DNA of 64,000 nucleotides from a bacterium (GTDB taxonomy: Bacteria; Verrucomicrobiota; Kiritimatiellia; CAIKKV01; CAITUY01): the NCBI GenBank assembly GCA_037143135.1, contig JBAWZH010000001.1, positions 9,553 through 73,552 on the forward strand, written 5' to 3'. A program made the position numbers and the translations under genes. The notes under the pieces are model-generated. The model was not told where the DNA came from. It saw nothing but the letters and a program-made list of their open reading frames with translations, and ran no database searches. Position 1 is the stretch's first letter. Each line of letters starts with the position of its first letter. Below are positions 1-33,011 of this stretch, piece by piece.

Positions 1-1
1 C

Positions 2-1984
2 GAAAAAGGGATTGCCGAAAAACTTGATGAACAGCTGAACCTTCTTGCAAGATTTGACCGCCCTATTCCAGATCGTCTCGAAGAACGTGCCCACGCACTG
101 ATTGATGCCCATCATCTTGCACAAGAGAGGCGTCGCAAAAGATGGATGGTTACAGCTGCTGTCGGCATCGTTCTAATTGCGAGCGCAGTAGCATTCGTGT
201 TTATTCGGCACAGTCATAAAGAGATAAAAGCCCAACTGTTGAATAATTTGGCGAATGCATACAAGGTTGAGGACGTAGAACGCTTCAACATGTTGTTATC
301 CCGTACAGAACGAGACCAGTCATGGCTCATGCGAGACCCGGATGTTAGACTATGGGCACAGAAGAGTGCGCACTTAGCAGGTCTTTTAGCCAAGAAACAA
401 AGTTCATTCCTGCAGTCACTCTCACGGTTGGAGTCAATTCGAGATGGCGGGTTCAAGCAGGGATTAGACGGCATTGAAGATCTCATCACAGTTGCTAAAA
501 ATAATGTGACTCAAGGTGCTGACCGTGGACGTTTAGCAGTAATTCTTCAAGAGTGGGAGTCGCATAAGCTTGCAAATCAGGCTGAAATAGATCGTCAGGC
601 AGCAGCGTCTATTGACGAGATTACGTACTCCCTTGAAAAAATAGCAAGTCTCTGTGTTACCAATTGGGCGTCTGCTAAATCTGAACTGGCTGAGTTGCGG
701 TTCAAAGCCAAAGCGGTTGAAAATAAGATTGAAAGTGCATCTCCTGAACCGAAAGCAAGGATGGCATCGCAGATCAGCAGAATTGACGCGATCTGCAAGG
801 AAATAGAATGCAAGGAGCGGCAGCTTCAAGTAATTCGTGAAGCTTCAACATTGCGCGACTATTTGAATGGTGTTCAGACTTATGTTCGAGCTTTTCCAAA
901 TGATAAGAGCAGCAACTTGATGAAAGATGTTTTACGGGAACAGAGTGACTATCTATCATTCATTGAACCATCATTTAACTGCAATTCAAGCAATCCCTTC
1001 TGGTATTCCCTTTCTAAAGATCGTGCAGCGATAACCCAACTTACAACAGAGAAATGGCCAGAGGTTAAAACCCTTTTGATGGGCTTGAATCAAGAAACGA
1101 GATTAATGGAGCTCTGGGAATGCGACACGACCAAAGGGAAAGTATTCTTCGAAGGGAAGCCGAAGGAAGTCTACCTTAAAGGTTTCAGGGAATATGAGGG
1201 CTCTGCTTATACACCAGGTGAGTCCGACATTCAGCCTGAATTTAAATCTACTACAGTTGACGGGAATACCATTAAGTCAGCGCGAATTATGTCGCATTGT
1301 GACTTTGTAAAAGGAGTCATTAGCATGGCTAGGTTCTCGACGGCGAGCACAGCGCCAGACGATTTGATGAATAAAATGCAAGAACTTTATGAAACTAATG
1401 GGATATCACCCCTTTTGAAGATTCGCTTGATGGGTATACTTTTCGATAGCTTAACAACGTTGATCGGTCAAGATCAGATCCCCGGAGGCAGGTCACTAAC
1501 ACGTGATTTGAAATCTATTGATTCGGATCTCCATTGGTTGTGTATTCGGAATAGAGACGTATTGATTGCCAACAAAAAGGCAGAGACCATCATGCGGCCA
1601 TACTTTGATGGCGGATCTCTGTTCCGGCGAAACCGTTTTAATAACGATGTTCGAAACCTATGCCTGCAAAGGAGCATTAGGTGGCTCGGATATGCTGATT
1701 TGGAAGATTCTTCCAAGGTAATTTGGAAAACACAGTCTAAACCTGTAGAAATCTGGATCGTGAGATCATCAGGCAGTAATGGATTGCAGGTTATACTAGC
1801 CGCAGAACGAAAGGGCGAAGTTATGACTCAATATGTGCCGTACATTTGTGGAGAACCACTTTTTGCGCCGGCTGATGACATTGCAACACGAGTTCATATG
1901 ACTAAACTAAAAACCAAATATAACCTCACAGAAACTAAGACTTTAAAATGGCCATTGGTGTGGCCGGCAAATTTCCGGCAATGA
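2..1984 (+). CDS. Hypothetical membrane protein, 5'-partial (the reading frame is open to the window edge; the listed Met at 146 is internal)
   Basis: Frame 2 is open from position 2 (EKGIAEKLDEQLNLL...) through the ORF. One hydrophobic TM segment (VTAAVGIVLIASAVAFVFI) sits just after the internal Met. No recognisable catalytic motif. Confidence 0.45.
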   Translation, partial: EKGIAEKLDEQLNLLARFDRPIPDRLEERAHALIDAHHLAQERRRKRWMVTAAVGIVLIASAVAFVFIRHSHKEIKAQLLNNLANAYKVEDVERFNMLLSRTERDQSWLMRDPDVRLWAQKSAHLAGLLAKKQSSFLQSLSRLESIRDGGFKQGLDGIEDLITVAKNNVTQGADRGRLAVILQEWESHKLANQAEIDRQAAASIDEITYSLEKIASLCVTNWASAKSELAELRFKAKAVENKIESASPEPKARMASQISRIDAICKEIECKERQLQVIREASTLRDYLNGVQTYVRAFPNDKSSNLMKDVLREQSDYLSFIEPSFNCNSSNPFWYSLSKDRAAITQLTTEKWPEVKTLLMGLNQETRLMELWECDTTKGKVFFEGKPKEVYLKGFREYEGSAYTPGESDIQPEFKSTTVDGNTIKSARIMSHCDFVKGVISMARFSTASTAPDDLMNKMQELYETNGISPLLKIRLMGILFDSLTTLIGQDQIPGGRSLTRDLKSIDSDLHWLCIRNRDVLIANKKAETIMRPYFDGGSLFRRNRFNNDVRNLCLQRSIRWLGYADLEDSSKVIWKTQSKPVEIWIVRSSGSNGLQVILAAERKGEVMTQYVPYICGEPLFAPADDIATRVHMTKLKTKYNLTETKTLKWPLVWPANFRQ

Positions 1985-3180
1985 ATGATCGAGATTCAAT
2001 TGATACGCGGAACCACGGACTGATACATGTGAGGTGGCGTGGAGTTGTAACCGGGCCTTATCTTGAGCAGACAATTCTTCAAATGCTGCGCGACAATAGC
2101 ATCACAAAGCACCACGAAATATCGAGAGACAGTGTTCGTTGGAGTTCGATCGCTCGAAGTGACTTATTGTCGAAGGCGTTTAATCAAAGCAGTAATGCAA
2201 ATTCTCAGGCCAAAGGTATTGTTGTGAATCACTCGGCAACAAAATCAATGCACAATGCGATATCCTTACAGGATCGGCGAAGCGAGCACGGGACGGGTAT
2301 TGCGCCAAACCGTGAATGCGGCAATCAGGATCCCCTCGATATCAGCGTCTCATCTCATCCCCTAGCCATGGTTTTGTTTGAAATTAAATCCGTTCCCTGG
2401 ATTCTTGCATTTGGCCTGTCCCCGCTGTTGATTCTGTTTCTGCAATCACTTCTAGGGTTATACTTTGCTCAAATCGCATGGCTTTTTAGTGCATACTTTT
2501 GCGCTTTATGGGCCTATATAGTCGGGAGACTCGCAGATCGGAATACTGAGACATGGAAAACAGGCATTTTATATGCCGTATTTACTGCCTTTATTGGAAT
2601 CGCAATGTTGCTTATTTGGCGATTCATACCGGTTATCGGGTCACTTTATGGCGCTATTGAAAGCGCGAATCCTATTAAGCGTCTGTTGGGTTTTGTTTTT
2701 GGTGTCGGCATTTGTGAGGAACTATGCAAGGCAGCCCCTTTGCTGATATTTGGGCTACGTTCCAAAATACTGCAATCTCCAGTTGATGGGCTTTTCTTAG
2801 GTATGATGTCAGGATTGGGTTTCGCCATGAACGAAGGCGTTGGATATACGATACAATACTGGTCAGCCGCGTCTGATCTGGGAGCCACATCTTTTGAACA
2901 ATACGGACAGATATTAGTTGTTCAATTGGTTCGATTCATGTCTCTTCCTCTATTGCATGCTGCTTGGGCAGGATTAGTCGGCTATGGTATAGCTTATGCG
3001 TTTCTCAATGCCCGTTGGGAGTTTGTCTTCCTTAGCATTGGTGCTGCGGCAATATTACATGGTTTCTACAACTTTGCGTCTCCGACAGTGTATTCACTTT
3101 TGATTGCAGGGTTATCGATGTCATTGACTCTGAGTTTACTTGTCAGAGAAACTCAATCCCACAGGAGGTGTTTTTCGTGA
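1981..3180 (+). CDS. DUF4339 (GYF-like) domain fused to a PrsW-like multi-pass intramembrane protease
   Basis: The N-terminus IHVRWRGVVTGPYLEQTILQMLRDNSITKHHEISRDSVRWSSIA matches the DUF4339/GYF_2 pattern. The C-terminal half is polytopic and carries the PrsW-family signatures EELCK and HAAWAGLVGYG...ILHGFYNF. The ATG at 1981 overlaps the upstream stop (ATGA); the tool start at 1948 is less likely. Confidence 0.55.
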   Translation: MNDRDSIDTRNHGLIHVRWRGVVTGPYLEQTILQMLRDNSITKHHEISRDSVRWSSIARSDLLSKAFNQSSNANSQAKGIVVNHSATKSMHNAISLQDRRSEHGTGIAPNRECGNQDPLDISVSSHPLAMVLFEIKSVPWILAFGLSPLLILFLQSLLGLYFAQIAWLFSAYFCALWAYIVGRLADRNTETWKTGILYAVFTAFIGIAMLLIWRFIPVIGSLYGAIESANPIKRLLGFVFGVGICEELCKAAPLLIFGLRSKILQSPVDGLFLGMMSGLGFAMNEGVGYTIQYWSAASDLGATSFEQYGQILVVQLVRFMSLPLLHAAWAGLVGYGIAYAFLNARWEFVFLSIGAAAILHGFYNFASPTVYSLLIAGLSMSLTLSLLVRETQSHRRCFS

Positions 3181-4139
3181 GTGACACATATTATCTTCGT
3201 TGGAAATCCCAAGTCACTGGTCCTTACCAAGATGAGGACATAAGGACAATGCTTGAAGAAGCAAGGATTACAAAACACCATCAAGTCTCGACAGATCAAA
3301 CAACATGGATCTCCCTAATAGAATCAGAGGCTTTTCGAAACAATTGCCGTGTTACGCTTGCTCCTAACGTAATCCAAGGTGCCGCTCAGGTAATTAGCGC
3401 GACACCAGTACGCAATCCTGATTGGGAATCGAACACGGGCCGTCTTCGTGTTAAAACGGCTGAAGACATTGCCGATGAATCGATGTGGTATTATGTTGAT
3501 GGCAGTTCTTCAGCGGGACCCGTAAGTGGTGCTGAGTTACAACGACTTGCTGATGAAGGTGTAATAGCAGGTCAAAGTCCAATTTGCCGAGAAGGCGAGG
3601 AGCGCTGGGTCAAGGCAATAACTGTATTCCCCAGTTACTGGTCTGATCAGCCGCGCTCTGTAGATCGAAGTGGTCAAGGGTCTTTGGCTGAGTCTTCTGA
3701 TTTTAGATATGCAGGCTTTTGGATTCGTTTTTGTGCATTATTCATAGACTCAATAATTGTCGGTATTTTTGCGGTTATTACAGAATTTGTCGTTTGTTTT
3801 GCGCTGGGGCTTTCGCTCGGTGCCGCTGGCGCCAATATTGCCTCGATCACATCAAAAGCTGCCCTTCTAGCCATGGCCGTAGGTGCTACAGTCAATTGGC
3901 TCTACTATGCTGCTGGTGAATCTTCTATGGCTCAGGCTACTCTAGGAAAACGCGCTATGGGGATAATTGTCACCGATATGAACGGAAAACGAATCACGTT
4001 CGGACATGCCACTGGGCGATACATAGGGAAGTTTATCTCTAGTATTTTATTGTGCGTTGGGTATCTGATGGTGGCCTTTACTGAAAAGAAACAAGGATTG
4101 CATGACATTATGGCAGGCACATTAGTGCTTCGGAAATAG
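3177..4139 (+). CDS. Two tandem DUF4339 (GYF-like) domains fused to an RDD-family membrane domain
   Basis: Two copies of the GYF_2 pattern: YYLRWKSQVTGPYQDEDIRTMLEE...TTWISL and WYYVDGSSSAGPVSGAELQRLADEGVIAGQSPICREGEERWVKA. The C-terminus RYAGFWIRFCALFIDSIIVGI... is RDD-like with 3 TM segments. A GTG at 3177 lies 8 nt after AGGAGG (3163-3168). Confidence 0.55.
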   Translation: MSDTYYLRWKSQVTGPYQDEDIRTMLEEARITKHHQVSTDQTTWISLIESEAFRNNCRVTLAPNVIQGAAQVISATPVRNPDWESNTGRLRVKTAEDIADESMWYYVDGSSSAGPVSGAELQRLADEGVIAGQSPICREGEERWVKAITVFPSYWSDQPRSVDRSGQGSLAESSDFRYAGFWIRFCALFIDSIIVGIFAVITEFVVCFALGLSLGAAGANIASITSKAALLAMAVGATVNWLYYAAGESSMAQATLGKRAMGIIVTDMNGKRITFGHATGRYIGKFISSILLCVGYLMVAFTEKKQGLHDIMAGTLVLRK

Positions 4140-4174
4140 GGTGCCTTTTTGAGCAATAAGAAAGGGAATGAACG

Positions 4175-5053
4175 ATGACGGAGACAAACCACGAGAAACT
4201 TATTCGCATTCTCGATTGGCGAAAAGAAGATATTGAGCAAAGGATGGGCTTCAAGGGGGGCAAATACACTGATGTTAATAATTTTCTGGCCTTTGGAATA
4301 GCCGCGCTTGTGACGATATTGTTTTATGGTGCGTTGATCGGAACCGGGGAGACTTTGCGTCGGGCGAGTTTCAGCCAAACCTTTTTAGACCGGGGGCCTA
4401 CCCCATACTTCATAATGTTCTTCACCTTTTGGTCACTGAGTACTTTAGCGCTCAAATGGCGAAAACTATTATTTCAGAAAAAAGCCCTTGATCTGGAAAT
4501 TGTACCTCACTCTCACGACTTCTCCCTAGCTCCTGCAACTGCGAGAGATGTTCTAGATCGTATGTACGGGCTTGTCGATGATCCCAAACATTTTGTCCTT
4601 TTCAATAGGATTGAACGCGCATTATTGAACTTGCACAACATAGGGATGATATCTGACGTATCTGAAATGCTTCGATCCCAGGCGCAAAATGATGAGGATC
4701 AGATGGAGTCGAGTTATGGTCTTATACGAGGCTTCATCTGGGGTGTCCCGATTCTCGGATTCATAGGCACAGTGCTCGGATTATCCATTGCCATTGGAAA
4801 GTTTGGAGCCGTACTGAGTGCTGGTGATGCCGTATTACAATTAAAGACATCCCTCACAGAAGTGACTTCCGGGCTTTCTGTTGCCTTCGACTGCACATTT
4901 CTGGCCCTTGTCTCGGCATTTGTGATGCAACTCATATTGACAGCCCTCAAGAAACAAGAGGAAGCCTTCTTTGATGATTGTAAGGACTATTGCCACCGGC
5001 ACATTATCAGCAAATTGCGGCTTAGTCACTTGCAGGGCGAGACTCAAGGGTAA
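4175..5053 (+). CDS. MotA/TolQ/ExbB-family proton-channel protein
   Basis: The C-terminal region GFIWGVPILGFIGTVLGLSIAIGKF...SLTEVTSGLSVAFDCTFLALVSAFVMQLI is typical of the MotA_ExbB channel domain. Three TM helices. 292 aa. Confidence 0.6.
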   Translation: MTETNHEKLIRILDWRKEDIEQRMGFKGGKYTDVNNFLAFGIAALVTILFYGALIGTGETLRRASFSQTFLDRGPTPYFIMFFTFWSLSTLALKWRKLLFQKKALDLEIVPHSHDFSLAPATARDVLDRMYGLVDDPKHFVLFNRIERALLNLHNIGMISDVSEMLRSQAQNDEDQMESSYGLIRGFIWGVPILGFIGTVLGLSIAIGKFGAVLSAGDAVLQLKTSLTEVTSGLSVAFDCTFLALVSAFVMQLILTALKKQEEAFFDDCKDYCHRHIISKLRLSHLQGETQG

Positions 5054-5071
5054 TATTAGTCAGGTCAATTC

Positions 5072-5866
5072 ATGAGTCGAAGAAACAGAGAAGATAAAAC
5101 TCCCCCAATTTCGCTATTTGCATTTCAAGACGTCATTTCCACTCTTTCTGGAATATTTATCTTTATTGTTTTGATAATGGCCGTTGATCTTTCGATGCTC
5201 AAGCCTGTTGGGGCGGATGGCGACTCGATCAACGATAAAGCGGTCATAGATCAACTCAGGACCTCCGTCCAGGCACTCAAGCAGCGTATTGTTGCTTTGA
5301 AAAGCGCTATGACCACTTTGAGTTCGCAGGACTCTGTAAATATTGCCGAGAAATGTACTCAGACCGAAAACGAAAATGAACTATTGCTTCGCCGGCATCA
5401 ACAACTCGTTGACGCGAATGTGTTGCTCGAAAAGCGACTGAGTGATGTTAAGCACAAACAGCGTGAGTCTGAGGTTAGGATAAATCCGTTGAACCATGAA
5501 ATTCAACGTTTACAGGCTGCGCTTGCAAAGGCGGCAAAAGAGAAGCAACTCTTTTTCATCCCAGAACCCGGTATAACAAAAACACCCCTTATCGTTGAAT
5601 GTTCAAAGGATAAAATTCGCGCAGGCTTTATTGCGCGTGACGCTGAGCCTGTCGTTTTTGAAATTTCTAACCATGGTTATGAAGCTTTCGAGAAATATAT
5701 TGGGCATCTGTCAATTACCAGTGAATATCTTGTATTTATGATAAAACCTTCAGGCAGTATTCATCGCTCGCGCCTATATTCTATCGCAAAATCTGCCGGC
5801 TTTGACTTGGGATTCGATGCCCTCGAGGAGTCGAAAGCGATTAACTTTGGGAAGGCCACACAGTGA
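5072..5866 (+). CDS. ExbD/TolR-like bitopic protein with an extended coiled-coil periplasmic region
   Basis: The N-terminal ISLFAFQDVISTLSGIFIFIVLIMAV resembles the ExbD/TolR TM signature. Heptad-rich region at residues ~60-160. At 264 aa it is longer than canonical ExbD. Confidence 0.4.
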   Translation: MSRRNREDKTPPISLFAFQDVISTLSGIFIFIVLIMAVDLSMLKPVGADGDSINDKAVIDQLRTSVQALKQRIVALKSAMTTLSSQDSVNIAEKCTQTENENELLLRRHQQLVDANVLLEKRLSDVKHKQRESEVRINPLNHEIQRLQAALAKAAKEKQLFFIPEPGITKTPLIVECSKDKIRAGFIARDAEPVVFEISNHGYEAFEKYIGHLSITSEYLVFMIKPSGSIHRSRLYSIAKSAGFDLGFDALEESKAINFGKATQ

Positions 5867-6768
5867 GGCAACGCGCTGAAAGTGATACAAGCAGTTTTTA
5901 CCTGCTGCTTGACATGATGTGCAACGCATTTGGTGGCATAGTATTCATAGGCTTGCTAATTGCTATCCTGTCTAGCTCCATGAGTCGTCAGGATGCAGAA
6001 AAAAAGAGTAACAGCAGTCGAAACCTCGACAAGGTTGAACAGAAATTAGAGGCTGAACGCCTTGCTAGAGAGCAACAAGAACTTACAGCAGCTCAGAGAC
6101 ATTTGGAAGAAACGTTAAGAAAGATTAAGGGGCCATCTGGGGCAAGTCCAGCAACTGATCTTGCTTCTTTGATCTGTAGCAATGGATTATTACAATCTGC
6201 CTGTGATGCTCTTGCCGCTTCTAACTCATTGATATCTGTTTCAATTTTCGACTCCGAAACATCGATTGAGTTAAATTCAACATCAGCAGCCGACGTTGAA
6301 AAGCAAATCACCCGACTTCGTGCGGATCTTTTACAAAAGCAGGAGGCGTCCAAGGAGACGTTGAGATTACCGCGAGAACATCCTGTTACAGGCAAAAACG
6401 CCGCGTTTATCGGAATTAAGGATGGAAAGTTATATGCGATAAGTAATGTGTCAGGATCTCGTCCGCGTAACTACGACCGTGAGGATGTTGATGTCGAAAG
6501 TGGCCCAGGACGGGACGTGGTCGAGTTACGTAAAAACAGAGGGCAGTTCATTAAGCGGGGTTGCGAAGATGAGGGTAAGTTCGCACAGGCGCTCGCAAGT
6601 TTGAATAGTCATTACGAATTTGTGTCATTTGCAGTGTCTACTAATTCATTTGCTGAGTTTAATTATGTGAAAGCTATTTTTGTCGGGCATGGATTCTTAT
6701 ACAACTGGGTCGTCACAGAGGGAGCCATTGAAATTGTGGTTCAGGATGAACCACTCCGTGTTCAGTGA
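5863..6768 (+). CDS. Second ExbD/TolR-like bitopic coiled-coil protein
   Basis: N-terminal FYLLLDMMCNAFGGIVFIGLLIAIL (ExbD-like TM) followed by a coiled coil. 4-bp overlap (ATGA) with the upstream gene. Confidence 0.4.
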   Translation: MRQRAESDTSSFYLLLDMMCNAFGGIVFIGLLIAILSSSMSRQDAEKKSNSSRNLDKVEQKLEAERLAREQQELTAAQRHLEETLRKIKGPSGASPATDLASLICSNGLLQSACDALAASNSLISVSIFDSETSIELNSTSAADVEKQITRLRADLLQKQEASKETLRLPREHPVTGKNAAFIGIKDGKLYAISNVSGSRPRNYDREDVDVESGPGRDVVELRKNRGQFIKRGCEDEGKFAQALASLNSHYEFVSFAVSTNSFAEFNYVKAIFVGHGFLYNWVVTEGAIEIVVQDEPLRVQ

Positions 6769-6769
6769 G

Positions 6770-7903
6770 TTATTGATGGAAAGAGCGGGCGATCAACATC
6801 ATTAGGCGTAATTCCTCTTCGGTATAAGCGGCAAGTCGAATAAAAGAATTCGCGTTTTCGGTAAACGATTTCACGCGATCCGCCATAATACCTCTAATGA
6901 CTTGCTCATTTGACATACTTCGATCCCAAGCGCGCGCGGATCCCTCGAGAATTGCACAAAGTGATGCGTGTATAGATTCATTCTTGCGGACAATGTGTAG
7001 ATTGCTCTCCATAGTGATGTTCAGTGTGTGTTCGAGTTGATCCCAAGGTTGGGAATGACCCGTGGATCGTGTGCCTTTGCGCCCTATTAGCATAAATGCA
7101 CGTCCAGTCACATAAGCAGCATCACATGCGCCCTCAACATTGGATGGGCGAATGGCGGATAACTTATCAGCAAGGGAGGGAGATGCTGACATTTCACTTT
7201 CTGTCTGGGACGCGACTACAACCGTTACGTCTGCAAGGAGTCGACTGTAACTGGCTATTGCAGATGAATAGTACGGTGCATCTTCTTGTGCGTATATAAG
7301 TTCCATTTGTTTCTGTATTTTATTAGCCAGATTTGTTGAGTCGGCCACATTGGCGCTCTTCAAAAGAATTACCTGTACCTTTATGGATTGTTTGATTGCG
7401 TTCATAATGCGCTGATAAACACTAGTATCGGGCATCTCTAGATATGCGTTATGATCGTGCTCAATTCGCGTCAACTCTTCGATTCGTTCGCTATTGTCCA
7501 GATCTGATGTGTTTGAGGTGACCTTTCTTACTGCTGAGGCATTATCCATAGGTGTACGAACAGTTGAATTTGTGATGGATTCTACTCCATTAGGGAATTG
7601 ACTCGTCTCTGGGGAAACATTCTCAGGGTGCACTTCGGTCGATGTTTTGCCACTGGATGTGTTTGTTAGATTGGGGCTTGTATCTTTACTTGGATCGCTT
7701 GGTTCTTGCTTCCCTCCTGTGTAGTATTTGACACCTGTAAAGACAGCAAATAGAAGCCCTATAACGGTGATGATGATGATGCTGATGAGAAATAGGTTTG
7801 GAGCCGAGCTATTGCGATCCGGCTTCTTTGTGCTAAGCAGTTCTCTGGGAATACGTGGTGGCCTGGGTGGTGTCAGAGATTGGGTATATTTCTTGTCACT
7901 CAT
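6770..7903 (-). CDS. Hypothetical membrane-anchored protein with a Pro/Arg-rich N-terminus and a Ser/Thr-rich linker
   Basis: Single TM segment (LFLISIIIITVIGLLFAVF), followed by a low-complexity S/T/N-rich stretch and a ~200-aa globular C-terminal domain of unknown family. Confidence 0.4.
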   Translation of the reverse strand: MSDKKYTQSLTPPRPPRIPRELLSTKKPDRNSSAPNLFLISIIIITVIGLLFAVFTGVKYYTGGKQEPSDPSKDTSPNLTNTSSGKTSTEVHPENVSPETSQFPNGVESITNSTVRTPMDNASAVRKVTSNTSDLDNSERIEELTRIEHDHNAYLEMPDTSVYQRIMNAIKQSIKVQVILLKSANVADSTNLANKIQKQMELIYAQEDAPYYSSAIASYSRLLADVTVVVASQTESEMSASPSLADKLSAIRPSNVEGACDAAYVTGRAFMLIGRKGTRSTGHSQPWDQLEHTLNITMESNLHIVRKNESIHASLCAILEGSARAWDRSMSNEQVIRGIMADRVKSFTENANSFIRLAAYTEEELRLMMLIARSFHQ

Positions 7904-7966: not shown

Positions 7967-8506
7967 TCACTTTCGGATTGTCGACTTCTTCCCTTGATTT
8001 GGTTGCATCCTTGAGTTTCCCGTAAGTTTGCTCTCGCCGATTATTGGATAGAGAAATGCGGACACTTGAGCGGTTGTAGCAGTAGATGCGATGCCCGATG
8101 CTCGAATCGAAACTGGGGGTTGACCAGGCCTATCAACTGTGTAGTTCCCGCCGCTGGATTGCCGGACATAGATAGGCAGTTTCCCTGGCGTGTTGATAGT
8201 GGCACCACCACCAGATGACGGTCTAATGGTGACTGGTAGCTGCCCAGGCATCGACACCGTCGAGCCCCCTCCCGATACTGGCCTCACGTAGGTCGGCAAT
8301 TGCCCTGGGGTGCTGATTATTGCGCCTCCACCTTGATTAGGCCTTACAGAGATGGGTAGCTCACCCGGCCTATTGATCGTTACTCCACCTCCCTGTGCAG
8401 TCCTCACATAGGTCGGAAGCTTGCCGGGTTCTTGAATAATGTAGGATTGAGCTTCTACTGATAATGCGCAGACGAGAAGTGCCAGAATGAAAACTATATT
8501 TTTCAC
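7967..8506 (-). CDS. Secreted tandem-repeat protein
   Basis: Signal peptide MKNIVFILALLVCALSVEA, then seven ~20-aa repeats of the form PGxLP(T/I)YVRxxxGGGxTI(N/S)x. Confidence 0.5.
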   Translation of the reverse strand: MKNIVFILALLVCALSVEAQSYIIQEPGKLPTYVRTAQGGGVTINRPGELPISVRPNQGGGAIISTPGQLPTYVRPVSGGGSTVSMPGQLPVTIRPSSGGGATINTPGKLPIYVRQSSGGNYTVDRPGQPPVSIRASGIASTATTAQVSAFLYPIIGESKLTGNSRMQPNQGKKSTIRK

Positions 8507-9169: not shown

Positions 9170-9652
9170 TCATCGCGGTCTGTACGTGCGGATAAAATTC
9201 ACCAGATCAGATCCTGTCTTGACGATGACGCGCTTTACCGAGCGTCCAAATGCAATTTGCGCATTCGGAAATACTAGAACCGATACGATCCAGGGTTTCC
9301 TCCTGAATAACTGCTCAGTTATGCTCCGTATCCACCGGATGCCCCGGTTGATCTGTGAAATGGGGTTGGAGGAAAAGCGATGGCGGTTGATTAAAAGATG
9401 TTTTCCGTCCCAGGTAACATTCCCCTCATGCGACTTGGTTTCAATGAGGAATATGATGCCATCGGGACGAACAACTACATGATCCAGATTGCCATAAGGA
9501 TATGGCACATTATTCAGTATGAGGCAACCATCTGAGAGAAGGGGTGTCAGCAACCTGCAGATTTCTTGTTCTGCCACCACCCATCGGGCGTTCTCTGTGC
9601 GACTTTCTCGATCATAAGTGGTTTTGCCACGGACGGTGTCTTTCTGAACCAT
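9170..9652 (-). CDS. NERD-domain (nuclease-related) protein
   Basis: LDHVVVRPDGIIFLIETKSHEGNV matches the NERD core (GEIDHLVIxxxGVFVIExK). Confidence 0.5.
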   Translation of the reverse strand: MVQKDTVRGKTTYDRESRTENARWVVAEQEICRLLTPLLSDGCLILNNVPYPYGNLDHVVVRPDGIIFLIETKSHEGNVTWDGKHLLINRHRFSSNPISQINRGIRWIRSITEQLFRRKPWIVSVLVFPNAQIAFGRSVKRVIVKTGSDLVNFIRTYRPR

Positions 9653-12217: not shown

Positions 12218-12571
12218 ATGAACGATTCATTAGGCAAACGAATACGTGAGCTTCGAGAAGCCAAGGATCTGTCGCTGAGAGATCTGGCTAAGAAGATTAA
12301 CGTTTCAGCTGCATTCCTGTCAGATGTTGAGTTAGAACGGCGTTATCCCTCCGAGGATAAGCTCTTGCTGCTTGCTACGGAACTTGGTGTCCCGACCGAG
12401 GATCTTCGGCGTTTCGACACGCGGGTGCCAGTGAAAGCTTTGCAGGAGGCATCCCGCCGAGACCCGACGGTAGGAATGGCACTTCGTTCCATTCTAAAAT
12501 CTGGAATCTCGTTCGATGAATTGAATGAGATCGCTCAGAAGAAAAAGGCGGAGGAGGTTGACGAAAAGTGA
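12218..12571 (+). CDS. capH: XRE/Cro-C1-type HTH transcriptional regulator (CapH-like)
   Basis: LRELREAKDLSLRDLAKKINVSAAFLSDVE is a canonical HTH_XRE. Its stop overlaps the next gene, which has an HEXXH motif. Sits directly upstream of a CBASS-type operon. Confidence 0.65.
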   Translation: MNDSLGKRIRELREAKDLSLRDLAKKINVSAAFLSDVELERRYPSEDKLLLLATELGVPTEDLRRFDTRVPVKALQEASRRDPTVGMALRSILKSGISFDELNEIAQKKKAEEVDEK

Positions 12572-13284
12572 GAACACGCCGATCACAATCAGGTCCCTTC
12601 AAGGAAAAGGTCTATTATCGGGACAGTGATTTCGAGGGTATCTGTCTCGATGCCCTGAAAGCATCAGCCTGCCTCCCCGCTTCACCATCTCCGGTGAGGA
12701 TAGATCGGTTTGTCGAGAAGCATTTCGCTAGTCTCCAGTTTGCGGATCTCGGGCCGAACATCCTTGGTTGTACCGAATTCTCGGCTAAGGGCGTTAGTGC
12801 GATCCTCATATCCTCTTCCTTGGAAGAGGAGCCAGGAAAGCCTGCGGAACGTAGGCTCCGATCCACGATTGCCCACGAAGCTGGCCATGGATTGCTTCAT
12901 GCACATCTGTTTGCCGACTTGGCTGCGGCACAGGCGCAATCGCAATTCGCGGATTGGACGAACCCCTCGAAGCCGCGGATCTTGTGCCGCGAGATTGAGG
13001 GGCTGTCTCCGTCCGTGAGGGTATCTTCATATGCTGGCCGTTGGTGGGAGTATCAGGCAAATAGGTGTATTGGGTCGCTGCTACTTCCTCAGAAACTCTT
13101 CACAGAGGCGATCAGGCCATACGGCCAGATGAAAGGCATGTTGGGAACCCTCGTTGTGCCATCTGACAAACGGCAAGTCGCTGCTGAGGGCTTGGCCGAG
13201 GTGTTTGATGTAAACCCTGCTGCAGTTAGGATTCGGATGGATCAGCTTTTCCCAGAAACTCAGGAGAATCAGCTTTCACTGTGA
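12568..13284 (+). CDS. capP: ImmA/IrrE-family Zn metallopeptidase (CapP-like)
   Basis: The HEXXH motif IAHEAGHGLLHAH. 4-bp overlap with the HTH gene. This pairing is typical of CapH/CapP regulators of CBASS. Confidence 0.65.
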   Translation: MRTRRSQSGPFKEKVYYRDSDFEGICLDALKASACLPASPSPVRIDRFVEKHFASLQFADLGPNILGCTEFSAKGVSAILISSSLEEEPGKPAERRLRSTIAHEAGHGLLHAHLFADLAAAQAQSQFADWTNPSKPRILCREIEGLSPSVRVSSYAGRWWEYQANRCIGSLLLPQKLFTEAIRPYGQMKGMLGTLVVPSDKRQVAAEGLAEVFDVNPAAVRIRMDQLFPETQENQLSL

Positions 13285-13359: not shown

Positions 13360-13881
13360 ATGACAGACATGACAAATGAGCAGAAATTCCAGGTTCTGAT
13401 GGCCGAGTTGCAGGAACGATACGATTCGTCTCATAAGATCCGGGACCGAAGCACACAGTTCACCTTATGGATTTCAGGTATGGCGATTGGCCTATCGTGG
13501 TTGTTAGTCAGCGAAGCTGTGCTATCCACACTACAAAAAGTCGCGATCACATTGTTGACTCTCGCGCTCTATTTTGGGGCAGTCTTCTTGATTCGTGCCC
13601 TTCATAAGGGTGCCCACGCAAACCGTGAAGCCATGATCAGAACAGAACGGGCGCTAGGCATGTATGAAAAGGGACTGTATTTGCAAGACGTTACATTGCT
13701 TCCTACTCAATATGGGCACACCGTTCCAAAGTGGAGTCACGATTCATGTACGCTCCCAATCTGGTTGACGGTGGTAGCCGTTGCCTTACTGATCCTGACC
13801 TGGACAACCCCATGTTCTCGAAAACAACAGAGTGAATCAACACAACCGCAACAACAGACAGGAGTACACAACCATGGCTGA
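13360..13881 (+). CDS. Small multi-TM protein, candidate membrane effector of the adjacent CBASS-type operon
   Basis: Soluble ~40-aa N-terminus, then 3 predicted TM helices (FTLWISGMAIGLSWLLV; VAITLLTLALYFGAVFLI; LPIWLTVVAVALLILTW). Its 3' end overlaps the cyclase start. Confidence 0.4.
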   Translation: MTDMTNEQKFQVLMAELQERYDSSHKIRDRSTQFTLWISGMAIGLSWLLVSEAVLSTLQKVAITLLTLALYFGAVFLIRALHKGAHANREAMIRTERALGMYEKGLYLQDVTLLPTQYGHTVPKWSHDSCTLPIWLTVVAVALLILTWTTPCSRKQQSESTQPQQQTGVHNHG

Positions 13882-14863
13882 CCTACACAGTGAATTCGGA
13901 ACATTCCACGATAAAGTCGCTCTTTCCTCAAGCAAGAAGGCGTCTTTACGCACATCGCGAGACGCCATTCGTGACCGTATTCGCAAACACTTTATTGAGG
14001 TTCTGAAAGTCGATCCTCCAAAGTTCCATGCCCAGGGCTCATTTACCATGGTAACGACAATGAACCCGCTCGACGGCGAGTTCGACATCGACGATGGTGT
14101 TTACCTGCAACACTTGGATCCTCATGACAGCAGCAAATGGCCGACGCCTGAAACCGTCCATGGATGGATCATCGACGCTATTGATGATCATACGGATGAG
14201 AAGCCGATAGACAAGCGCACGTGTGTTCGTGTTCAGTACGCAGGGCAGTATCATGTGGACCTCCCATCCTATGCCAAACTGAATGGCGATTACATGCTGG
14301 CAGTCAAAGGAGATGCCGGTTGGCATCGCAGCGATCCAAAAGCTATCACCGACTGGTTCAAGAAGCGCGTGAAACAGAACGGTGAGCAATTTCGGCGCAT
14401 CGTGCGTTATCTGAAGGCATGGACTGACTACCAGTCTGGGAAGCGTGGTAAGATGCCGAATGGACTGATCATGACCGTTCTGGCATCAGACTGTTTCTGC
14501 GCGGATGCACGAGATGATGTGTCTCTGGCAAATACCGCCGCCGCCATCAAGCGTGCCGTCACACCAGTCTTCTGTGTTCGCAACCCAACTGACACCTCAG
14601 AGGAGATCACACGACGCTTGACAGATGAGCAAAAGAGTCGTTTCCAGGCGGCAATAACGGACTTAGCGGCAGATGGTGCGGCTGCCGTCGCGGAGAAAAG
14701 CAGGAAGAAGGCGTCGAAGCTATGGCAGGGGCAACTGGGTGATCGTTTTCCTCTAATTGATGAAGAGGATAGTAAAGATGAAGACCGAAAGAAAGAGGAT
14801 GCCAACCGACTGGCGGCGTTCTTCGTGTCCACGAAGCCCCCAAAGCCATGGGCATTCCAATGA
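13874..14863 (+). CDS. cGAS/DncV-like nucleotidyltransferase (CD-NTase/SMODS) of a CBASS-type system
   Basis: Polymerase-beta-fold signature QGSFTMVTTMNPLDGEFDIDDGVYL (GS...[DE]hD). The N-terminal helix resembles CD-NTases. ATG at 13874 with GGAG 9 nt upstream; the tool start at 13832 is less likely. Confidence 0.65.
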   Translation: MADLHSEFGTFHDKVALSSSKKASLRTSRDAIRDRIRKHFIEVLKVDPPKFHAQGSFTMVTTMNPLDGEFDIDDGVYLQHLDPHDSSKWPTPETVHGWIIDAIDDHTDEKPIDKRTCVRVQYAGQYHVDLPSYAKLNGDYMLAVKGDAGWHRSDPKAITDWFKKRVKQNGEQFRRIVRYLKAWTDYQSGKRGKMPNGLIMTVLASDCFCADARDDVSLANTAAAIKRAVTPVFCVRNPTDTSEEITRRLTDEQKSRFQAAITDLAADGAAAVAEKSRKKASKLWQGQLGDRFPLIDEEDSKDEDRKKEDANRLAAFFVSTKPPKPWAFQ

Positions 14864-17269: not shown

Positions 17270-17500
17270 ATGCCACATGAAAAACAGATCAAGCATGATG
17301 ATGTATTGAACGCTGACGAGGCTTCCACCTGGCTTAAAATCCCTAAGTCCACCCTCTACAAGTTATGTAGCGAAGGTGAACTGCCGGCCGCAAAGGTGGG
17401 GCGTCATTGGCGATTCCACCGGGAAACGCTTGAGCAATGGTTGTTAGAGAAGACTCAGCGCCCCCAGGCCGATGACCCAGAAGCCAATTCAGAGGAATAA
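17270..17500 (+). CDS. HTH_17 (excisionase/AlpA/MerR-like) DNA-binding protein
   Basis: LKIPKSTLYKLCSEGELPAAKVGRHWRFHRETLEQW. First gene of the kinase operon. Confidence 0.5.
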   Translation: MPHEKQIKHDDVLNADEASTWLKIPKSTLYKLCSEGELPAAKVGRHWRFHRETLEQWLLEKTQRPQADDPEANSEE

Positions 17501-18608: not shown

Positions 18609-18612
18609 ACCA

Positions 18613-24529: not shown

Positions 24530-24640
24530 GGACGGTACGTCTTACGACCATAATTAGGAGTTCTTTTTGTCAGTACCAAGGCATAAGAAACAGTGATGGA
24601 TTCCAGGGTTAGCGGTCAATGCAAGTGAACGGCGATCTTC

Positions 24641-25897: not shown

Positions 25898-25945
25898 GTG
25901 CGACAATCCGCTTGTGACTGCGGTCATTGCGAGGAAGGTAAAGTA

Positions 25946-31622: not shown

Positions 31623-31719
31623 GTGAGCCGAACATCATCTGTCCAAAGTGCAAGGCGGAAATCAGGCTGTCCGAATCAATATGCTATTGTTTGCATTTTC
31701 GTTATGGAGAACCACTGAA

Positions 31720-33009: not shown

Positions 33010-33011
33010 CC

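What the first reader, a model, noticed from the sequence alone, without database searches (positions are those of the whole stretch)
1981..6768. Paired DUF4339/GYF-like membrane proteins (PrsW-protease fusion and RDD fusion) upstream of a MotA/ExbB channel with two ExbD-like coiled-coil partners
Two consecutive genes each begin with cytoplasmic DUF4339 (GYF_2-like) domains, one copy in the first and two in the second. One fuses them to a PrsW-type intramembrane protease; in B. subtilis that family performs site-1 cleavage of an anti-sigma factor. The other fuses them to an RDD domain. They are followed in the same orientation, with small gaps, by a MotA/ExbB-family proton channel and two ExbD/TolR-like proteins that are unusually long (264 and 301 aa) with coiled coils. 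This looks like an ion-motive-force-driven envelope machine coupled to a regulated-proteolysis sensor. It is not a standard Tol/Ton/Mot locus: there is no TonB/TolA C-domain and no OmpA-like MotB domain.
Basis: partly seen in the sequence, partly recalled or inferred. Interest (0 to 1): 0.55.

Follow-up and report, generated by a model that had tools for sequence, protein, structure and literature searches.

The report
ExbB-like motor module of GTPase–GAP1 system
The five genes are the back half of an eight-gene, membrane-bound operon of the predicted "DO-GTPase/GAP1" conflict-system type; here a GTPase switch is always linked to an ExbB-like ion channel and two long coiled-coil partners, so it is a candidate second kind of motor-based bacterial immune system after Zorya.

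Summary
All five ORFs are real and sit at the stated coordinates. Pfam confirms PrsW, RDD, MotA_ExbB and two GYF_2 copies in the RDD protein. The GYF call in the PrsW protein rests only on 42% identity to the RDD protein's first GYF copy. No profile supports the "ExbD-like" label for the 264-aa and 301-aa proteins. They are paralogs: a single TM helix with a near-invariant Asp, a ~100-residue coiled coil, and a small α/β domain whose match to TolR is marginal.

The window cuts the operon. On a matching contig it has eight genes: FHA–GYF–DO-GTPase2, GAP1-N2/M, a 958-aa bitopic protein, then the five genes. This is a GAP1-N2 "GTPase-centric conflict system" (Kaur et al. 2020).

In 80 genomes, mostly Planctomycetota, Verrucomicrobiota and Lentisphaerota with some Desulfobacterota, GTPase–GAP1–~1000-aa protein and ExbB-like–G7–G8 are near-constant. 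The slot holding PrsW and RDD varies, but its occupants usually start with GYF.

The ExbB-like model matches ExbB and TolQ structures best. The locus borders a dense defence island.

My reading: an ion-driven stator-like complex wired to a GTPase switch that deploys GYF-docked membrane effectors. I rate it a new variant of a known kind, with no experimental data. The 2020 paper's main text never mentions the channel module.

The parts
1..1984 (+). G3: C-terminal about two thirds (aa ~299-958) of a 958-aa bitopic membrane protein. It has a helical N-terminal domain, one TM helix (MVTAAVGIVLIASAVAFVFI, encoded from window 146) and a ~590-aa C-terminal part with no known domain. Its start lies 893 nt upstream of the window.
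   Evidence: L001 gene 4934-7810. tblastn finds homologs in 37 of 45 loci with enough upstream sequence. A ~1000-aa ORF with one TM at residue ~340-390 is present in every locus where both large upstream ORFs could be called. No Pfam, PADLOC or PDB-profile hit.
1981..3180 (+). G4: divergent GYF-like N-terminal domain plus PrsW-family intramembrane protease (399 aa). Occupies the variable effector slot.
   Evidence: Pfam PrsW-protease 8.7e-27. ATGA overlap with the G3 stop. Motifs EELCK, GFAMNE and HGFYN present.
2026..2169 (+). GYF-like domain of G4 (aa 16-63).
   Evidence: 42% identity, E 2e-13, to the first GYF copy of G5. No direct Pfam GYF_2 hit.
3177..4139 (+). G5: GYF_2 x2 plus RDD membrane domain (320 aa). 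Occupies the variable effector slot.
   Evidence: Pfam RDD 1.8e-24; GYF_2 3.1e-14 with two stretches. GTGA overlap with the G4 stop and an AGGAGG 8 nt upstream. The RDD part matches the C-terminus of the PADLOC PD-T4-6 model at 2.2e-14.
3189..3311 (+). G5 first GYF_2 copy (weak).
   Evidence: 21.0 bits, E 2.9e-4, below the 25.8-bit cut-off when scanned alone.
3486..3620 (+). G5 second GYF_2 copy.
   Evidence: 40.6 bits, E 2.2e-10.
3708..4118 (+). RDD domain of G5.
   Evidence: Pfam PF06271, full-length match 1-137 of 137.
4175..5053 (+). G6: ExbB/TolQ-like channel subunit (292 aa). It has four TM helices, one more at the N-terminus than ExbB, and conserved cytoplasmic N-peptide, loop and C-tail.
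   Evidence: Pfam MotA_ExbB 2.7e-10. AF2 model pLDDT 80.8, pTM 0.75. Foldseek top ~40 PDB hits are all ExbB or TolQ; the best is 5sv0_C with TM 0.74. At least 1275 homologs at 50-77% identity. 606 cluster representatives at E<=1e-30.
5072..5866 (+). G7: B-type partner 1 (264 aa). N-in single TM with an invariant Asp20 (motif SLFAFQDVI), a ~100-residue helix, and a C-terminal α/β domain (β-β-β-α-β-α-β).
   Evidence: Alignment A2. Asp present in 69 of 69 homologs. AF2 model: TM 15-41, helix 55-157, domain 171-250. Present in 68 of 69 loci with enough downstream sequence.
5129..5131 (+). Codon of G7 Asp20, the candidate ion-carrying residue.
   Evidence: Invariant column in A2; 69 of 69.
5863..6768 (+). 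G8: B-type partner 2 (301 aa), a paralog of G7. N-in TM with Asp17 (motif LLLDMMCNAFGG), a coiled coil, and a larger C-terminal domain with a conserved DSF motif.
   Evidence: hhalign G7 family against G8 family: probability 99.7%, E 1.4e-25. Asp in 65 of 68. GTGA overlap with the G7 stop. Present in 68 of 69 loci.
5911..5913 (+). Codon of G8 Asp17.
   Evidence: Conserved in >=90% of sequences in A3; 65 of 68.

Best explanation
The region is the distal five genes of an eight-gene, almost entirely membrane-anchored GAP1-N2-type 'GTPase-centric conflict system'.

Shown:
- The operon order is FHA-GYF-2xZn-ribbon-DO-GTPase2; GAP1-N2/M with a TM helix and an extracytoplasmic tail; a bitopic ~1000-aa protein (G3); one or two GYF-headed membrane proteins, here a PrsW protease and an RDD protein; an ExbB/TolQ-like subunit (G6); and two paralogous single-pass proteins (G7, G8).
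- G7 and G8 each carry a conserved Asp at the cytoplasmic end of the TM helix, then a ~15-nm periplasmic helix, then a small α/β domain.
- GTPase, GAP1, G3, G6, G7 and G8 are the constant core across phyla. The GYF-headed proteins vary.

Inferred:
1. G6 forms a pentameric ring around a G7/G8 heterodimer, like the 5:2 ExbB-ExbD, TolQ-TolR, MotA-MotB and ZorA-ZorB complexes. Protons or Na+ pass via the two Asp residues.
2. The long coiled coils place the C-terminal domains of G7 and G8 at the wall or outer membrane. The complex therefore reports on, or pulls at, the envelope, as ZorAB does on phage entry.
3. A change in the motor's state is read on the cytoplasmic face, through the conserved N-peptide, loop and Cys/His-rich tail of G6, by membrane-anchored GAP1 and G3. 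These set the nucleotide state of the DO-GTPase. The FHA domain adds a phosphothreonine input.
4. The GYF domain on the GTPase and those on the variable proteins share a docking site, possibly the recurrent Pro-rich linker just before the GAP1 TM helix. Through it the switch recruits or releases the membrane effectors (PrsW proteolysis; RDD, DUF4190 or TM2 membrane proteins; trypsin; vWA).
5. The result is membrane damage and growth arrest of the invaded cell.
For: Operon extension and domains:
- DO-GTPase2 36.3 bits, GAP1-N2 69.1, GAP1-M 51.9, FHA 48.1, GYF_2 34.2.
- the GTPase has GAPSSGKS, a Walker B with Glu (LYDNAGE), SKAD and two Zn ribbons. This is as Kaur et al. describe DO-GTPases of GAP1-N2 systems.

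Synteny:
- 42 and 43 of 45 loci with >=9 kb upstream have the GTPase and GAP1. 68 of 69 with >=2.6 kb downstream have G7 and G8.
- The same core occurs in a Desulfobacterota-like contig that lacks the slot genes.

Variable slot:
- Occupants are mostly GYF-headed, with differing C-terminal domains.

Channel and partners:
- G6 has an ExbB/TolQ fold.
- The TM Asp is conserved in both partners, and they are paralogs.
- N-terminal Arg clusters indicate an N-in topology.
- The G7 C-domain has the β-β-β-α-β-α-β order and aligns colinearly with the TolR periplasmic domain, but only marginally (P 0.023; Foldseek 5by4 TM 0.54).

Conflict context:
- The window carries CBASS, SIR2-HerA, type III R-M, a NACHT/STAND NTPase, a KAP NTPase and NERD right next to the operon.
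- A sister family of G6 has a ZorA-like tail, is followed by G7/G8-like genes, and sits beside CHAT-FGE-sulfatase genes.
- Precedent for a 5:2 motor acting as an infection sensor: Zorya (PMC11946911).

Docking site:
- Pro-rich linkers before the GAP1 TM helix occur in about a third of loci.
Against: - No experiment exists for any DO-GTPase/GAP1 system. The 'conflict' role is itself a comparative-genomics prediction.
- No ExbD/TolR/MotB profile recognises G7 or G8. The 5:2 assembly was not modelled.
- G6 is unusually well conserved for an immune gene: 50-77% identity across phyla. The six-gene core is also rigid. Both would fit a housekeeping envelope machine.
- No PADLOC model matches G1-G3, G7 or G8. 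G6 gives only weak ZorA hits.
- The G3 protein has no FNIII repeats, which Kaur et al. list as the typical third component of GAP1-N2 systems.
- The direction of signalling (motor to GTPase, or GTPase to motor) is not constrained by any result.
- The Pro-rich candidate GYF ligand is not universal.
Confidence: 0.55

Rival explanations
1. Same eight-gene conflict system, but the ExbB-like/G7/G8 complex is the executioner rather than the sensor. It would be a normally plugged ion channel that the GTPase-GAP1 switch opens to collapse the membrane potential (abortive infection). The periplasmic parts of GAP1 and G3 would do the sensing, and the GYF proteins would be accessory.
For: - Unplugged MotAB/ExbBD-type channels leak protons (established knowledge of the MotB plug).
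- GAP1 and G3 each carry large, poorly conserved extracytoplasmic parts suited to sensing.
- Kaur et al. assign sensing to the GAP1-associated variable module.
- Pore-forming SLATT effectors are the commonest effectors shared between the two GAP1 system types.
- The Desulfobacterota-like locus has the channel but no GYF slot gene, so some effector must lie within the core.
Against: - Effectors in such systems normally vary between relatives. G6/G7/G8 is the most constant part, and G6 the best-conserved protein.
- A simple pore would not need a ~100-residue periplasmic coiled coil and a folded distal domain on both partners.
- The one characterised defence motor, ZorAB, is a sensor and transducer.
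Confidence: 0.2
2. Not an immune system. Instead it is a PVC-type trans-envelope machine, functionally analogous to Tol-Pal or Ton. It would use ion-motive force, gated by a GTPase, for outer-membrane tethering, wall remodelling, division or uptake. The GYF-headed proteins would be lineage-specific clients.
For: - The six-gene core is conserved in order and content in at least 582 species-level genomes.
- G6 is conserved at 50-77% identity.
- Every component is membrane-anchored, with periplasm-spanning helices.
- No nuclease or NAD-type effector is present.
- No hit in PADLOC.
Against: - The phyletic spread is wide and patchy: Planctomycetota, Verrucomicrobiota, Lentisphaerota, Kiritimatiellia and Desulfobacterota, plus single MAGs labelled Cyanobium, Chitinophaga, Heliomicrobium and Syntrophus. 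That suggests horizontal transfer, although MAG contamination is possible.
- Slot genes differ within one genus, Prosthecobacter: ~550-aa proteins versus 215-aa DUF4190 proteins.
- Mobile-element genes are inserted in or lie near some copies.
- The window copy sits in a dense defence island.
- The sister module is linked to CHAT-FGS genes.
Confidence: 0.17
3. A PrsW-type site-1 protease and an RDD protein form a regulated-proteolysis sensor (as in σW/RsiW) that is mechanically coupled to the ion-driven machine. PrsW would be the central signalling step.
For: - The PrsW domain and its catalytic motifs are intact.
- The genes are translationally coupled to the channel genes.
- The sister module does sit beside ECF sigma/anti-sigma genes.
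Against: - PrsW occurs in only 4 of 47 slot proteins and RDD in 1 of 47.
- Many loci have neither, and one has no slot gene at all.
- No sigma or anti-sigma gene lies in or next to this operon.
- The invariant partners are the GTPase and GAP1, which this model ignores.
Confidence: 0.05

Closest known systems
GAP1-N2-type DO-GTPase 'GTPase-centric' conflict systems (Kaur, Burroughs, Iyer & Aravind, eLife 2020; PMC7159879). Computational prediction only.
   Same: - A DO-GTPase2 with two Zn ribbons and a Walker-B Glu, immediately followed by GAP1 with N2 and M domains and a C-terminal TM helix.
- Membrane-proximal architecture.
- Variable downstream components.
- Occurrence in planctomycetes and verrucomicrobia.
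- The planctomycete variant with GYF pairs fused to a trypsin or a TM-rich region is explicitly mentioned.
   Different: - The paper's main text never mentions MotA, ExbB, TolQ, proton, ion channel, PrsW or RDD. The one supplement held as text has none of these terms either. I could not see the figures or the source-data file.
- In these loci the ExbB-like protein and its two coiled-coil partners are as constant as GAP1 itself.
- G3 is a bitopic ~1000-aa protein without detectable FNIII repeats.
- The GTPase here also carries FHA and GYF domains.
Zorya anti-phage system (ZorA5B2 motor plus ZorC/D; PMC11946911).
   Same: - An inner-membrane MotA/ExbB-superfamily subunit with a partner carrying a TM Asp, inside a defence-island context.
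- A long coiled coil as the presumed signal-transmitting element.
- ZorA models are the best PADLOC match to G6 (3.6e-5). They match its tailed sister family better (6.7e-14).
   Different: - No ZorB-type peptidoglycan-binding domain, no ZorC/D/E, and no cytoplasmic ZorA tail on G6.
- The coiled coil is on the B-type subunits and is periplasmic.
- There are two different B-type paralogs rather than a homodimer.
- The downstream partner is a GTPase-GAP1 pair and membrane proteins, not nucleases.
ExbB-ExbD (Ton) and TolQ-TolR (Tol-Pal) 5:2 complexes.
   Same: - The G6 model superposes best on ExbB and TolQ (TM 0.69-0.74).
- Gene order is A then B.
- The B-type proteins are N-in single-pass with an Asp near the cytoplasmic end of the helix, and have a C-terminal α/β domain of the same strand/helix order.
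- Systems with two ExbD-type paralogs are known, for example ExbD1/ExbD2 and AglQ/AglS (from my own knowledge).
   Different: - Sequence similarity is marginal for G6 (TolQ E 0.057) and undetectable for G7 and G8.
- G6 has an extra N-terminal TM helix.
- A ~100-150-residue coiled coil is inserted between the TM helix and the distal domain.
- There is no TonB, TolA, TolB or Pal.
- The module is linked to a GTPase switch.
PrsW (B. subtilis site-1 protease of RsiW) and the PD-T4-6 defence protein (RDD-containing).
   Same: - G4 has the PrsW domain with EExxK, GFAxxE and HxxxN motifs.
- The RDD domain of G5 matches the C-terminus of the PADLOC PD-T4-6 model (2.2e-14).
   Different: - No anti-sigma/sigma pair is present, and no kinase domain as in PD-T4-6.
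- Both domains here are interchangeable cargo behind GYF heads.

Membership tests
GAP1-N2-type DO-GTPase conflict system (Kaur et al. 2020) | DO-GTPase (PF19993) with a Walker-B glutamate and usually two N-terminal Zn ribbons. | tested here: met
   L001 779-2557: DO-GTPase2 36.3 bits (cut-off 27). GAPSSGKS, LYDNAGE and SKAD motifs. CPYCW and CPDMACPVCH ribbons. This gene lies outside the window.
GAP1-N2-type DO-GTPase conflict system (Kaur et al. 2020) | GAP1 with GAP1-N2 and GAP1-M domains encoded directly downstream of the GTPase. | tested here: met
   L001 2559-4937: GAP1-N2 69.1 bits and GAP1-M 51.9 bits. Present in 43 of 45 related loci.
GAP1-N2-type DO-GTPase conflict system (Kaur et al. 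2020) | A protein with rapidly evolving FNIII repeats as the third component. | tested here: not met
   G3 (958 aa) has no FN3 or any other Pfam domain. Its C-terminal 330-aa profile finds nothing in PDB sequences. No structure was predicted, so a cryptic Ig-like fold is not excluded.
GAP1-N2-type DO-GTPase conflict system (Kaur et al. 2020) | Variable effector-like components next to a constant core. | tested here: met
   Slot proteins carry PrsW, RDD, DUF4190, TM2, vWA, trypsin or unknown domains behind GYF heads.
MotA/TolQ/ExbB channel family (PF01618) | Profile match above the Pfam gathering score, and the ExbB-type helical fold. | tested here: met
   40.5 bits against a 22.9-bit cut-off. 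Foldseek top hits are all ExbB or TolQ; best TM 0.74, rmsd 3.9 Å over 237 columns.
MotA/TolQ/ExbB channel family (PF01618) | Pentamer enclosing a dimer of B subunits (5:2). | not testable with these tools
   No multimer prediction tool was available.
ExbD/TolR family (PF02472) | Profile-level sequence similarity. | tested here: not met
   No ExbD hit in 52 G7 C-domains. No ExbD/TolR/MotB among PDB-sequence hits for the N- or C-terminal profiles. hhalign probability <=2%, best P 0.023.
ExbD/TolR family (PF02472) | N-in single TM helix with a conserved Asp near its cytoplasmic end, encoded just downstream of the A subunit. | tested here: met
   G7 Asp20 in 69 of 69 and G8 Asp17 in 65 of 68. Arg-rich N-termini. 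Gene order as stated.
ExbD/TolR family (PF02472) | Periplasmic α/β domain with the TolR/ExbD fold. | tested here: inconclusive
Zorya | ZorA with a long cytoplasmic tail, ZorB with a peptidoglycan-binding domain, and ZorC/D or ZorE/F/G. | tested here: not met
   Only weak partial ZorA hits to G6 (3.6e-5). No ZorB-G hits. G6 ends 34 residues after its last TM helix.
Ton / Tol-Pal / flagellar stator loci | TonB or TolA partner; TolB/Pal; OmpA-like MotB domain. | tested here: not met
   None among the operon proteins or neighbours.
PrsW intramembrane protease (PF13367) | Profile match and the catalytic EExxK / HxxxN motifs. | tested here: met
   94.4 bits. EELCK, GFAMNE and HGFYN present, as in the three other PrsW-type slot proteins. 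The motif definitions come from my own knowledge of the family.
PrsW intramembrane protease (PF13367) | Works on an anti-sigma factor (σW/RsiW-type context). | tested here: not met
   No sigma or anti-sigma gene in the operon or flanks.
GYF_2 / DUF4339 (PF14237) | Profile match above the gathering score. | tested here: met
   G5: 52.9 bits overall; copy 2 scores 40.6 and copy 1 scores 21.0. G1: 34.2 bits. G4: no direct hit, only 42% identity to G5 copy 1, so G4 on its own is inconclusive.
RDD (PF06271) | Profile match. | tested here: met
   87 bits, full-length 1-137 of 137.

The most novel reading that the evidence does not exclude
This would be a second class of prokaryotic immune machine built on a 5:2-type ion-driven motor, independent of Zorya and widespread in PVC bacteria. 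An ExbB-like ring would turn around a heterodimer of two coiled-coil paralogs that reach ~15 nm across the periplasm. Its mechanical state would be converted by a membrane-anchored GAP1/DO-GTPase switch, with FHA phospho-input, into the GYF-mediated deployment of interchangeable membrane effectors. A tailed, ZorA-like sister module would serve CHAT-FGS systems in the same way. If so, the 'stator plus two B-paralogs' unit is a portable envelope-sensing cassette for several conflict systems.
Probability: 0.3. Interest if true: 0.8.

Novelty: new variant of a known kind. Interest (0 to 1): 0.62.

Why it matters
Zorya is so far the only defence system shown to use a MotAB-type ion-driven motor as an infection sensor. 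Here a very divergent ExbB-like channel is hard-wired to a GTPase-GAP1 switch. That switch class was predicted five years ago, and I found no experimental study of it in the searchable literature.

The channel's two partners are unlike any described B subunit: a TM Asp, a long periplasmic coiled coil and a distal α/β domain. The module is abundant, with at least 582 species-level genomes and 606 clusters at 50% identity, and it belongs to phyla with almost no characterised immunity.

If the model holds, it gives three things:
- a testable function for DO-GTPase/GAP1 systems;
- a new way of coupling ion-motive force to a nucleotide switch;
- a bacterial role for GYF domains as effector-docking adaptors.

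If the housekeeping rival holds, it would be a new Tol-like envelope machine of PVC bacteria. That would also be worth knowing.

Tried and rejected
- A Tol-Pal, Ton, gliding or flagellar locus continuing outside the window. Rejected: the upstream genes are the GTPase, GAP1 and G3.
- Canonical Zorya. Rejected.
- Any PADLOC system for G1-G3, G7 or G8. None found.
- NCBIfam names. None useful.
- Full-length G7 profile against PDB sequences. Only coiled-coil noise, so I split it into N- and C-terminal profiles. Still no ExbD/TolR.
- Building a broader ExbD/TolR profile. The loci contain no canonical ExbD. The last homolog search, seeded with TolR+ExbD, returned only enterobacterial sequences of 85-100% identity. 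That was a poor use of the search. The resulting 15-sequence profile gave only P=0.023.
- Structure prediction with locus-derived alignments.
- The neighbouring convergent genes (377-aa Pro-rich/TM protein, repeat protein, 179-aa protein, NERD) as parts of the system. Rejected: no homolog beside the system in 80 loci.
- G3 C-terminal profile against PDB sequences. Nothing.
- Literature searches on DO-GTPase, GAP1-N2, GTPase-centric, and GYF/PrsW/RDD/ExbB combinations. Only the 2020 paper came up.
- The mBio 2025 MotAB phylogeny paper. It does not describe this module.
- P0065 context look-up. Not on record.

Full report
OBSERVATION

The window has five co-directional ORFs at 1981-3180 (G4), 3177-4139 (G5), 4175-5053 (G6), 5072-5866 (G7) and 5863-6768 (G8). 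The junctions indicate translational coupling: an ATGA overlap at 1981, a GTGA overlap at 3177 preceded by AGGAGG, gaps of 35 and 18 nt, and a GTGA overlap at 5863.

Pfam gives these matches:
- PrsW-protease, 94.4 bits, in G4.
- RDD, 87 bits, and GYF_2, 52.9 bits with two stretches, in G5.
- MotA_ExbB, 40.5 bits, in G6.
- Nothing but coiled-coil noise in G7, and nothing in G8.

Scanned alone, the second GYF copy of G5 is solid at 40.6 bits. The first is sub-threshold at 21 bits. The G4 N-terminus has no GYF_2 hit, but it is 42% identical (E 2e-13) to G5's first copy.

THE WINDOW CUTS THE OPERON

The ORF listed as 146-1984 is the C-terminal part of a longer gene. A look-up of the exact G6 protein found a 34-kb metagenomic contig (L001) with the same genes in the same order. 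Window position equals L001 position minus 5826. A 470-nt intergenic region follows a divergent gene, and then the operon reads as follows.

- G1 (592 aa): FHA (48.1 bits), GYF_2 (34.2 bits) and DO-GTPase2 (36.3 bits; cut-off 27).
- G2 (792 aa): GAP1-N2 (69.1 bits) and GAP1-M (51.9 bits).
- G3 (958 aa).
- Then G4 to G8.

G1 has two Zn ribbons (CPYCW..., CPDMACPVCH), Walker A GAPSSGKS, a Walker B with glutamate (LYDNAGE) and SKAD. G2 has a TM helix at about residue 333-350, preceded by RPRPPKKDAPKRK and followed by a Ser/Thr-rich linker and a ~340-aa domain. G3 has a ~345-aa helical N-domain, one TM helix and a ~590-aa C-terminal part.

This matches the 'GTPase-centric systems' of Kaur, Burroughs, Iyer and Aravind (eLife 2020, PMC7159879). 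They describe DO-GTPases with a Walker-B Glu and two Zn ribbons. GAP1 lies immediately downstream and is often TM-anchored. The systems act close to the membrane and occur in planctomycetes and verrucomicrobia. [quoted passage not shown]

SYNTENY

G6 has at least 1275 homologs at 50-77% identity. A profile search of 1.84 billion cluster representatives finds 606 at E<=1e-30. A scan of GTDB species genomes found at least 582 encoding loci, and I kept 80. They are mostly Planctomycetota, Verrucomicrobiota, Lentisphaerota and Kiritimatiellia, with some Desulfobacterota and scattered others.

I ran tblastn with the eight proteins against these loci.
- Of 45 loci with >=9 kb upstream, 42 have the GTPase and 43 have GAP1.
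- 37 of the 45 have a detectable G3. The rest where genes could be called still have a ~1000-aa ORF with one TM helix at residue ~340-390.
- Of 69 loci with >=2.6 kb downstream, 68 have both G7 and G8.

G4 and G5 are not constant. Of 47 proteins from the slot between G3 and G6, and from a second slot between G6 and G7, 31 match GYF_2. Their C-terminal parts are DUF4190 (8), vWA (6), PrsW (4), TM2 (2), RDD (1, the window's own), trypsin (1) or unknown. Slot content differs within the genus Prosthecobacter. A Desulfobacterota-like contig has GYF-GTPase, GAP1-N2, a 998-aa protein and G6, then a mobile-element-like insertion, then two small genes. It has no slot gene.

The constant core is therefore G1-G2-G3 plus G6-G7-G8. 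PrsW and RDD are cargo.

G6 IS EXBB/TOLQ-LIKE BUT VERY DIVERGENT

Its family profile barely detects TolQ among PDB sequences (E 0.057). The AlphaFold2 model (24-sequence alignment, pLDDT 80.8, pTM 0.75) gives about 40 consecutive top Foldseek hits that are all ExbB or TolQ chains. The best are 5sv0_C (TM 0.74, rmsd 3.9 Å over 237 columns) and A. baumannii TolQ (0.69). MotA and PomA score 0.27-0.46.

Relative to ExbB, G6 has one extra N-terminal TM helix, so its conserved N-peptide (L.W...D.E...G..GKYTDVN) is cytoplasmic. The cytoplasmic loop and the C-tail (KKKEE.FLD.C.DYCH) are nearly invariant. So are P192, G195/G198/T199 in TM3 and T240/T241 in TM4.

G7 AND G8

They are paralogs (hhalign probability 99.7%, E 1.4e-25). 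Each has these features:
- An Arg-rich N-terminus.
- One TM helix with a signature at its cytoplasmic end. G7 has SLF[AS]FQDIIT, with Asp in 69 of 69. G8 has SLELLLDTxCNTFGG, with Asp in 65 of 68.
- A poorly conserved helical region.
- A conserved C-terminal domain.

The G7 model (pLDDT 75.7) has a TM helix at 15-41, a single helix at 55-157 (about 15 nm) and a β-β-β-α-β-α-β domain at 171-250 with pLDDT 80-94.

I tested ExbD/TolR homology in several ways.
- No PF02472 hit in 52 C-domains.
- No ExbD/TolR/MotB among PDB-sequence hits for either terminal profile.
- hhalign against E. coli TolR+ExbD gave probability <1%. The TolR sequence was verified as 100% identical to 9ddm_Y.
- With a 15-sequence enterobacterial profile there is a colinear 70-column match of the whole domain (TolR 60-132), but only at P=0.023.
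- Foldseek against the PDB gives weak hits only. Ribosomal S11 and RNase-H-like folds come first. TolR 5by4 is 48th (E 0.022) but has the highest target-normalised TM in the list, 0.54.

I conclude that G7 and G8 work like B-type stator subunits in position, topology and the TM Asp. Membership of the ExbD family is not shown.

CONTEXT

The operon abuts a dense defence island:
- NERD.
- HTH with a weak M78-like match.
- A CBASS CD-NTase.
- A Ser/Thr kinase and a Sel1-repeat protein.
- An HSP70-like protein and a NACHT/STAND NTPase.
- An SNF2 helicase.
- SIR2 and HerA.
- A type III R-M pair.
- A KAP NTPase.

The convergent genes right after G8 are not conserved with the system. No PADLOC model matches G1-G3, G7 or G8. 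G6 gives only weak ZorA hits.

The exhaustive profile search also revealed a sister family: a Zn ribbon, the G6-like module and a 150-550-aa coiled-coil tail. It matches ZorA models at up to 6.7e-14. It is followed by two G7/G8-like genes, and in one case the G7-like protein lacks the Asp. It lies beside CHAT-FGE-sulfatase (with or without a kinase) and ECF sigma/anti-sigma genes. FGS and caspase-like components belong to the same effector-sharing network described by Kaur et al.. The three-gene module therefore looks like a portable cassette used by more than one predicted conflict system.

MECHANISM

Shown: gene content, order, domain identities, conserved residues, folds and variability.

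Inferred: G6 forms a ring around a G7/G8 heterodimer, and ions pass via the two Asp residues. The periplasmic coiled coils place the distal domains at the wall or outer membrane. The motor's state is coupled at the cytoplasmic face to GAP1, G3 and the GTPase. GYF domains, present on the GTPase and on nearly all slot proteins, act as docking adaptors for the variable membrane effectors. A Pro-rich stretch just before the GAP1 TM helix recurs in about a third of loci and is a candidate ligand. Zorya is the precedent for a 5:2 motor acting as an infection sensor and transducer.

I put about 0.55 on this overall picture. I put about 0.95 on 'part of a DO-GTPase2/GAP1-N2 operon', about 0.65 on 'stator-like ion-conducting complex', and about 0.6 on 'conflict/defence function'.

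The main rivals are these:
- The channel is the executioner, opened by the switch (0.2).
- A housekeeping Tol-like envelope machine of PVC bacteria (0.17). The rigid core and the high conservation of G6 favour it. The patchy cross-phylum spread, within-genus slot variation, mobile-element insertions and defence-island context count against it.

NOVELTY

The system type is known, though only computationally, and the GYF variant is mentioned in print. The 2020 paper's main text has no occurrence of MotA, ExbB, TolQ, proton, ion channel, PrsW or RDD. The one supplement held as text has none of the gene-family terms either. No other paper in the searchable library mentions DO-GTPase/GAP1-N2 systems in this sense. 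I could not see that paper's figures or its source-data file, so an unlabelled depiction cannot be excluded.

The constant ExbB-like module with two coiled-coil B-paralogs, and its tailed sister, therefore appear to be undescribed. I rate this a new variant of a known kind, with interest 0.62.

Noticed in passing
window 9170-41582: A dense defence island next to the operon. It holds NERD (9170-9652, -), HTH_3 with a weak M78-like match (12218-13284), a CBASS CD-NTase (13832-14863) with a 274-aa SEC-C-motif protein (14848-15672), and a Ser/Thr kinase (17472-18608) with a Sel1-repeat protein (18505-21420). It also holds an SNF2 helicase (28758-31622), SIR2 (31648-33009) with HerA (32907-34784), an N6/N4 methylase (35062-36789) with ResIII (36786-39467), and a KAP NTPase (39714-41582).
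   Followed up: partly
window 22031-28329: An HSP70-like protein (832 aa), an unknown 418-aa protein, a TPR/OmpA-like protein and a NACHT/STAND NTPase lie in a row. This may be another Kaur-type NTPase conflict system; HSP70 is one of their GAP1-N2 themes. I did not analyse it.
   Followed up: no
window 7967-8506 (-): A 179-aa protein with a signal peptide and about seven degenerate repeats of the form PG.LP.YVR....GGG..I. There is no Pfam hit and no DNA-level tandem repeat. It is not conserved next to the system elsewhere.
   Followed up: partly
window 6770-7903 (-): A convergent 377-aa protein whose stop lies 1 nt from the G8 stop. It has a Pro-rich cytoplasmic N-tail (TPPRPPRIPR) followed by a TM helix. 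The tail could in principle be a GYF ligand, but the protein has no homolog beside the system in 80 loci.
   Followed up: partly
L084 78-3914; L086 103-9760; L087 3506-13792: A sister family of the ExbB-like protein has a Zn ribbon, the MotA module and a long coiled-coil tail. It is ZorA-like (PADLOC up to 6.7e-14). It is followed by two G7/G8-like genes; in L084 the G7-like one has no TM Asp. In L086 and L087 it lies next to CHAT+FGE-sulfatase (with a kinase in L086) and ECF sigma/anti-sigma genes.
   Followed up: partly
L016 5803-7164; L017 10828-11973; L018 5309-6568; L023 10840-12051; L044 6250-7584; L057 10825-12156; L081 3211-4518: Nine planctomycete loci have a ~1.2-1.4-kb insertion between the ExbB-like gene and G7. 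In seven of them it encodes a GYF-headed protein of 380-450 aa; six of those seven have a vWA-type MIDAS motif (DxSxS). One of the other two (L026) has a non-GYF 352-aa ORF and the other (L006) has no + strand ORF of at least 150 aa there.
   Followed up: partly
L083 10937-12508: An AAA-ATPase_like/PDDEXK_9 gene, typical of mobile elements, is inserted between the ExbB-like gene and the G7/G8 homologs in a Desulfobacterota-like 1.15-Mb contig. That copy has no GYF slot gene.
   Followed up: no
L064-L080 (Limisphaerales and other Verrucomicrobiia loci, e.g. L068 10876-12291, L076 2099-3910): G7 homologs are expanded to 350-603 aa, with AD instead of QD before the TM helix in six cases. The periplasmic stalk length therefore varies several-fold between lineages.
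   Followed up: no
L009 10917-12613: In a Gimesia MAG the G7 and G8 homologs lie on the opposite strand, downstream of the ExbB-like gene. This is a local inversion of the B-subunit pair.
   Followed up: no
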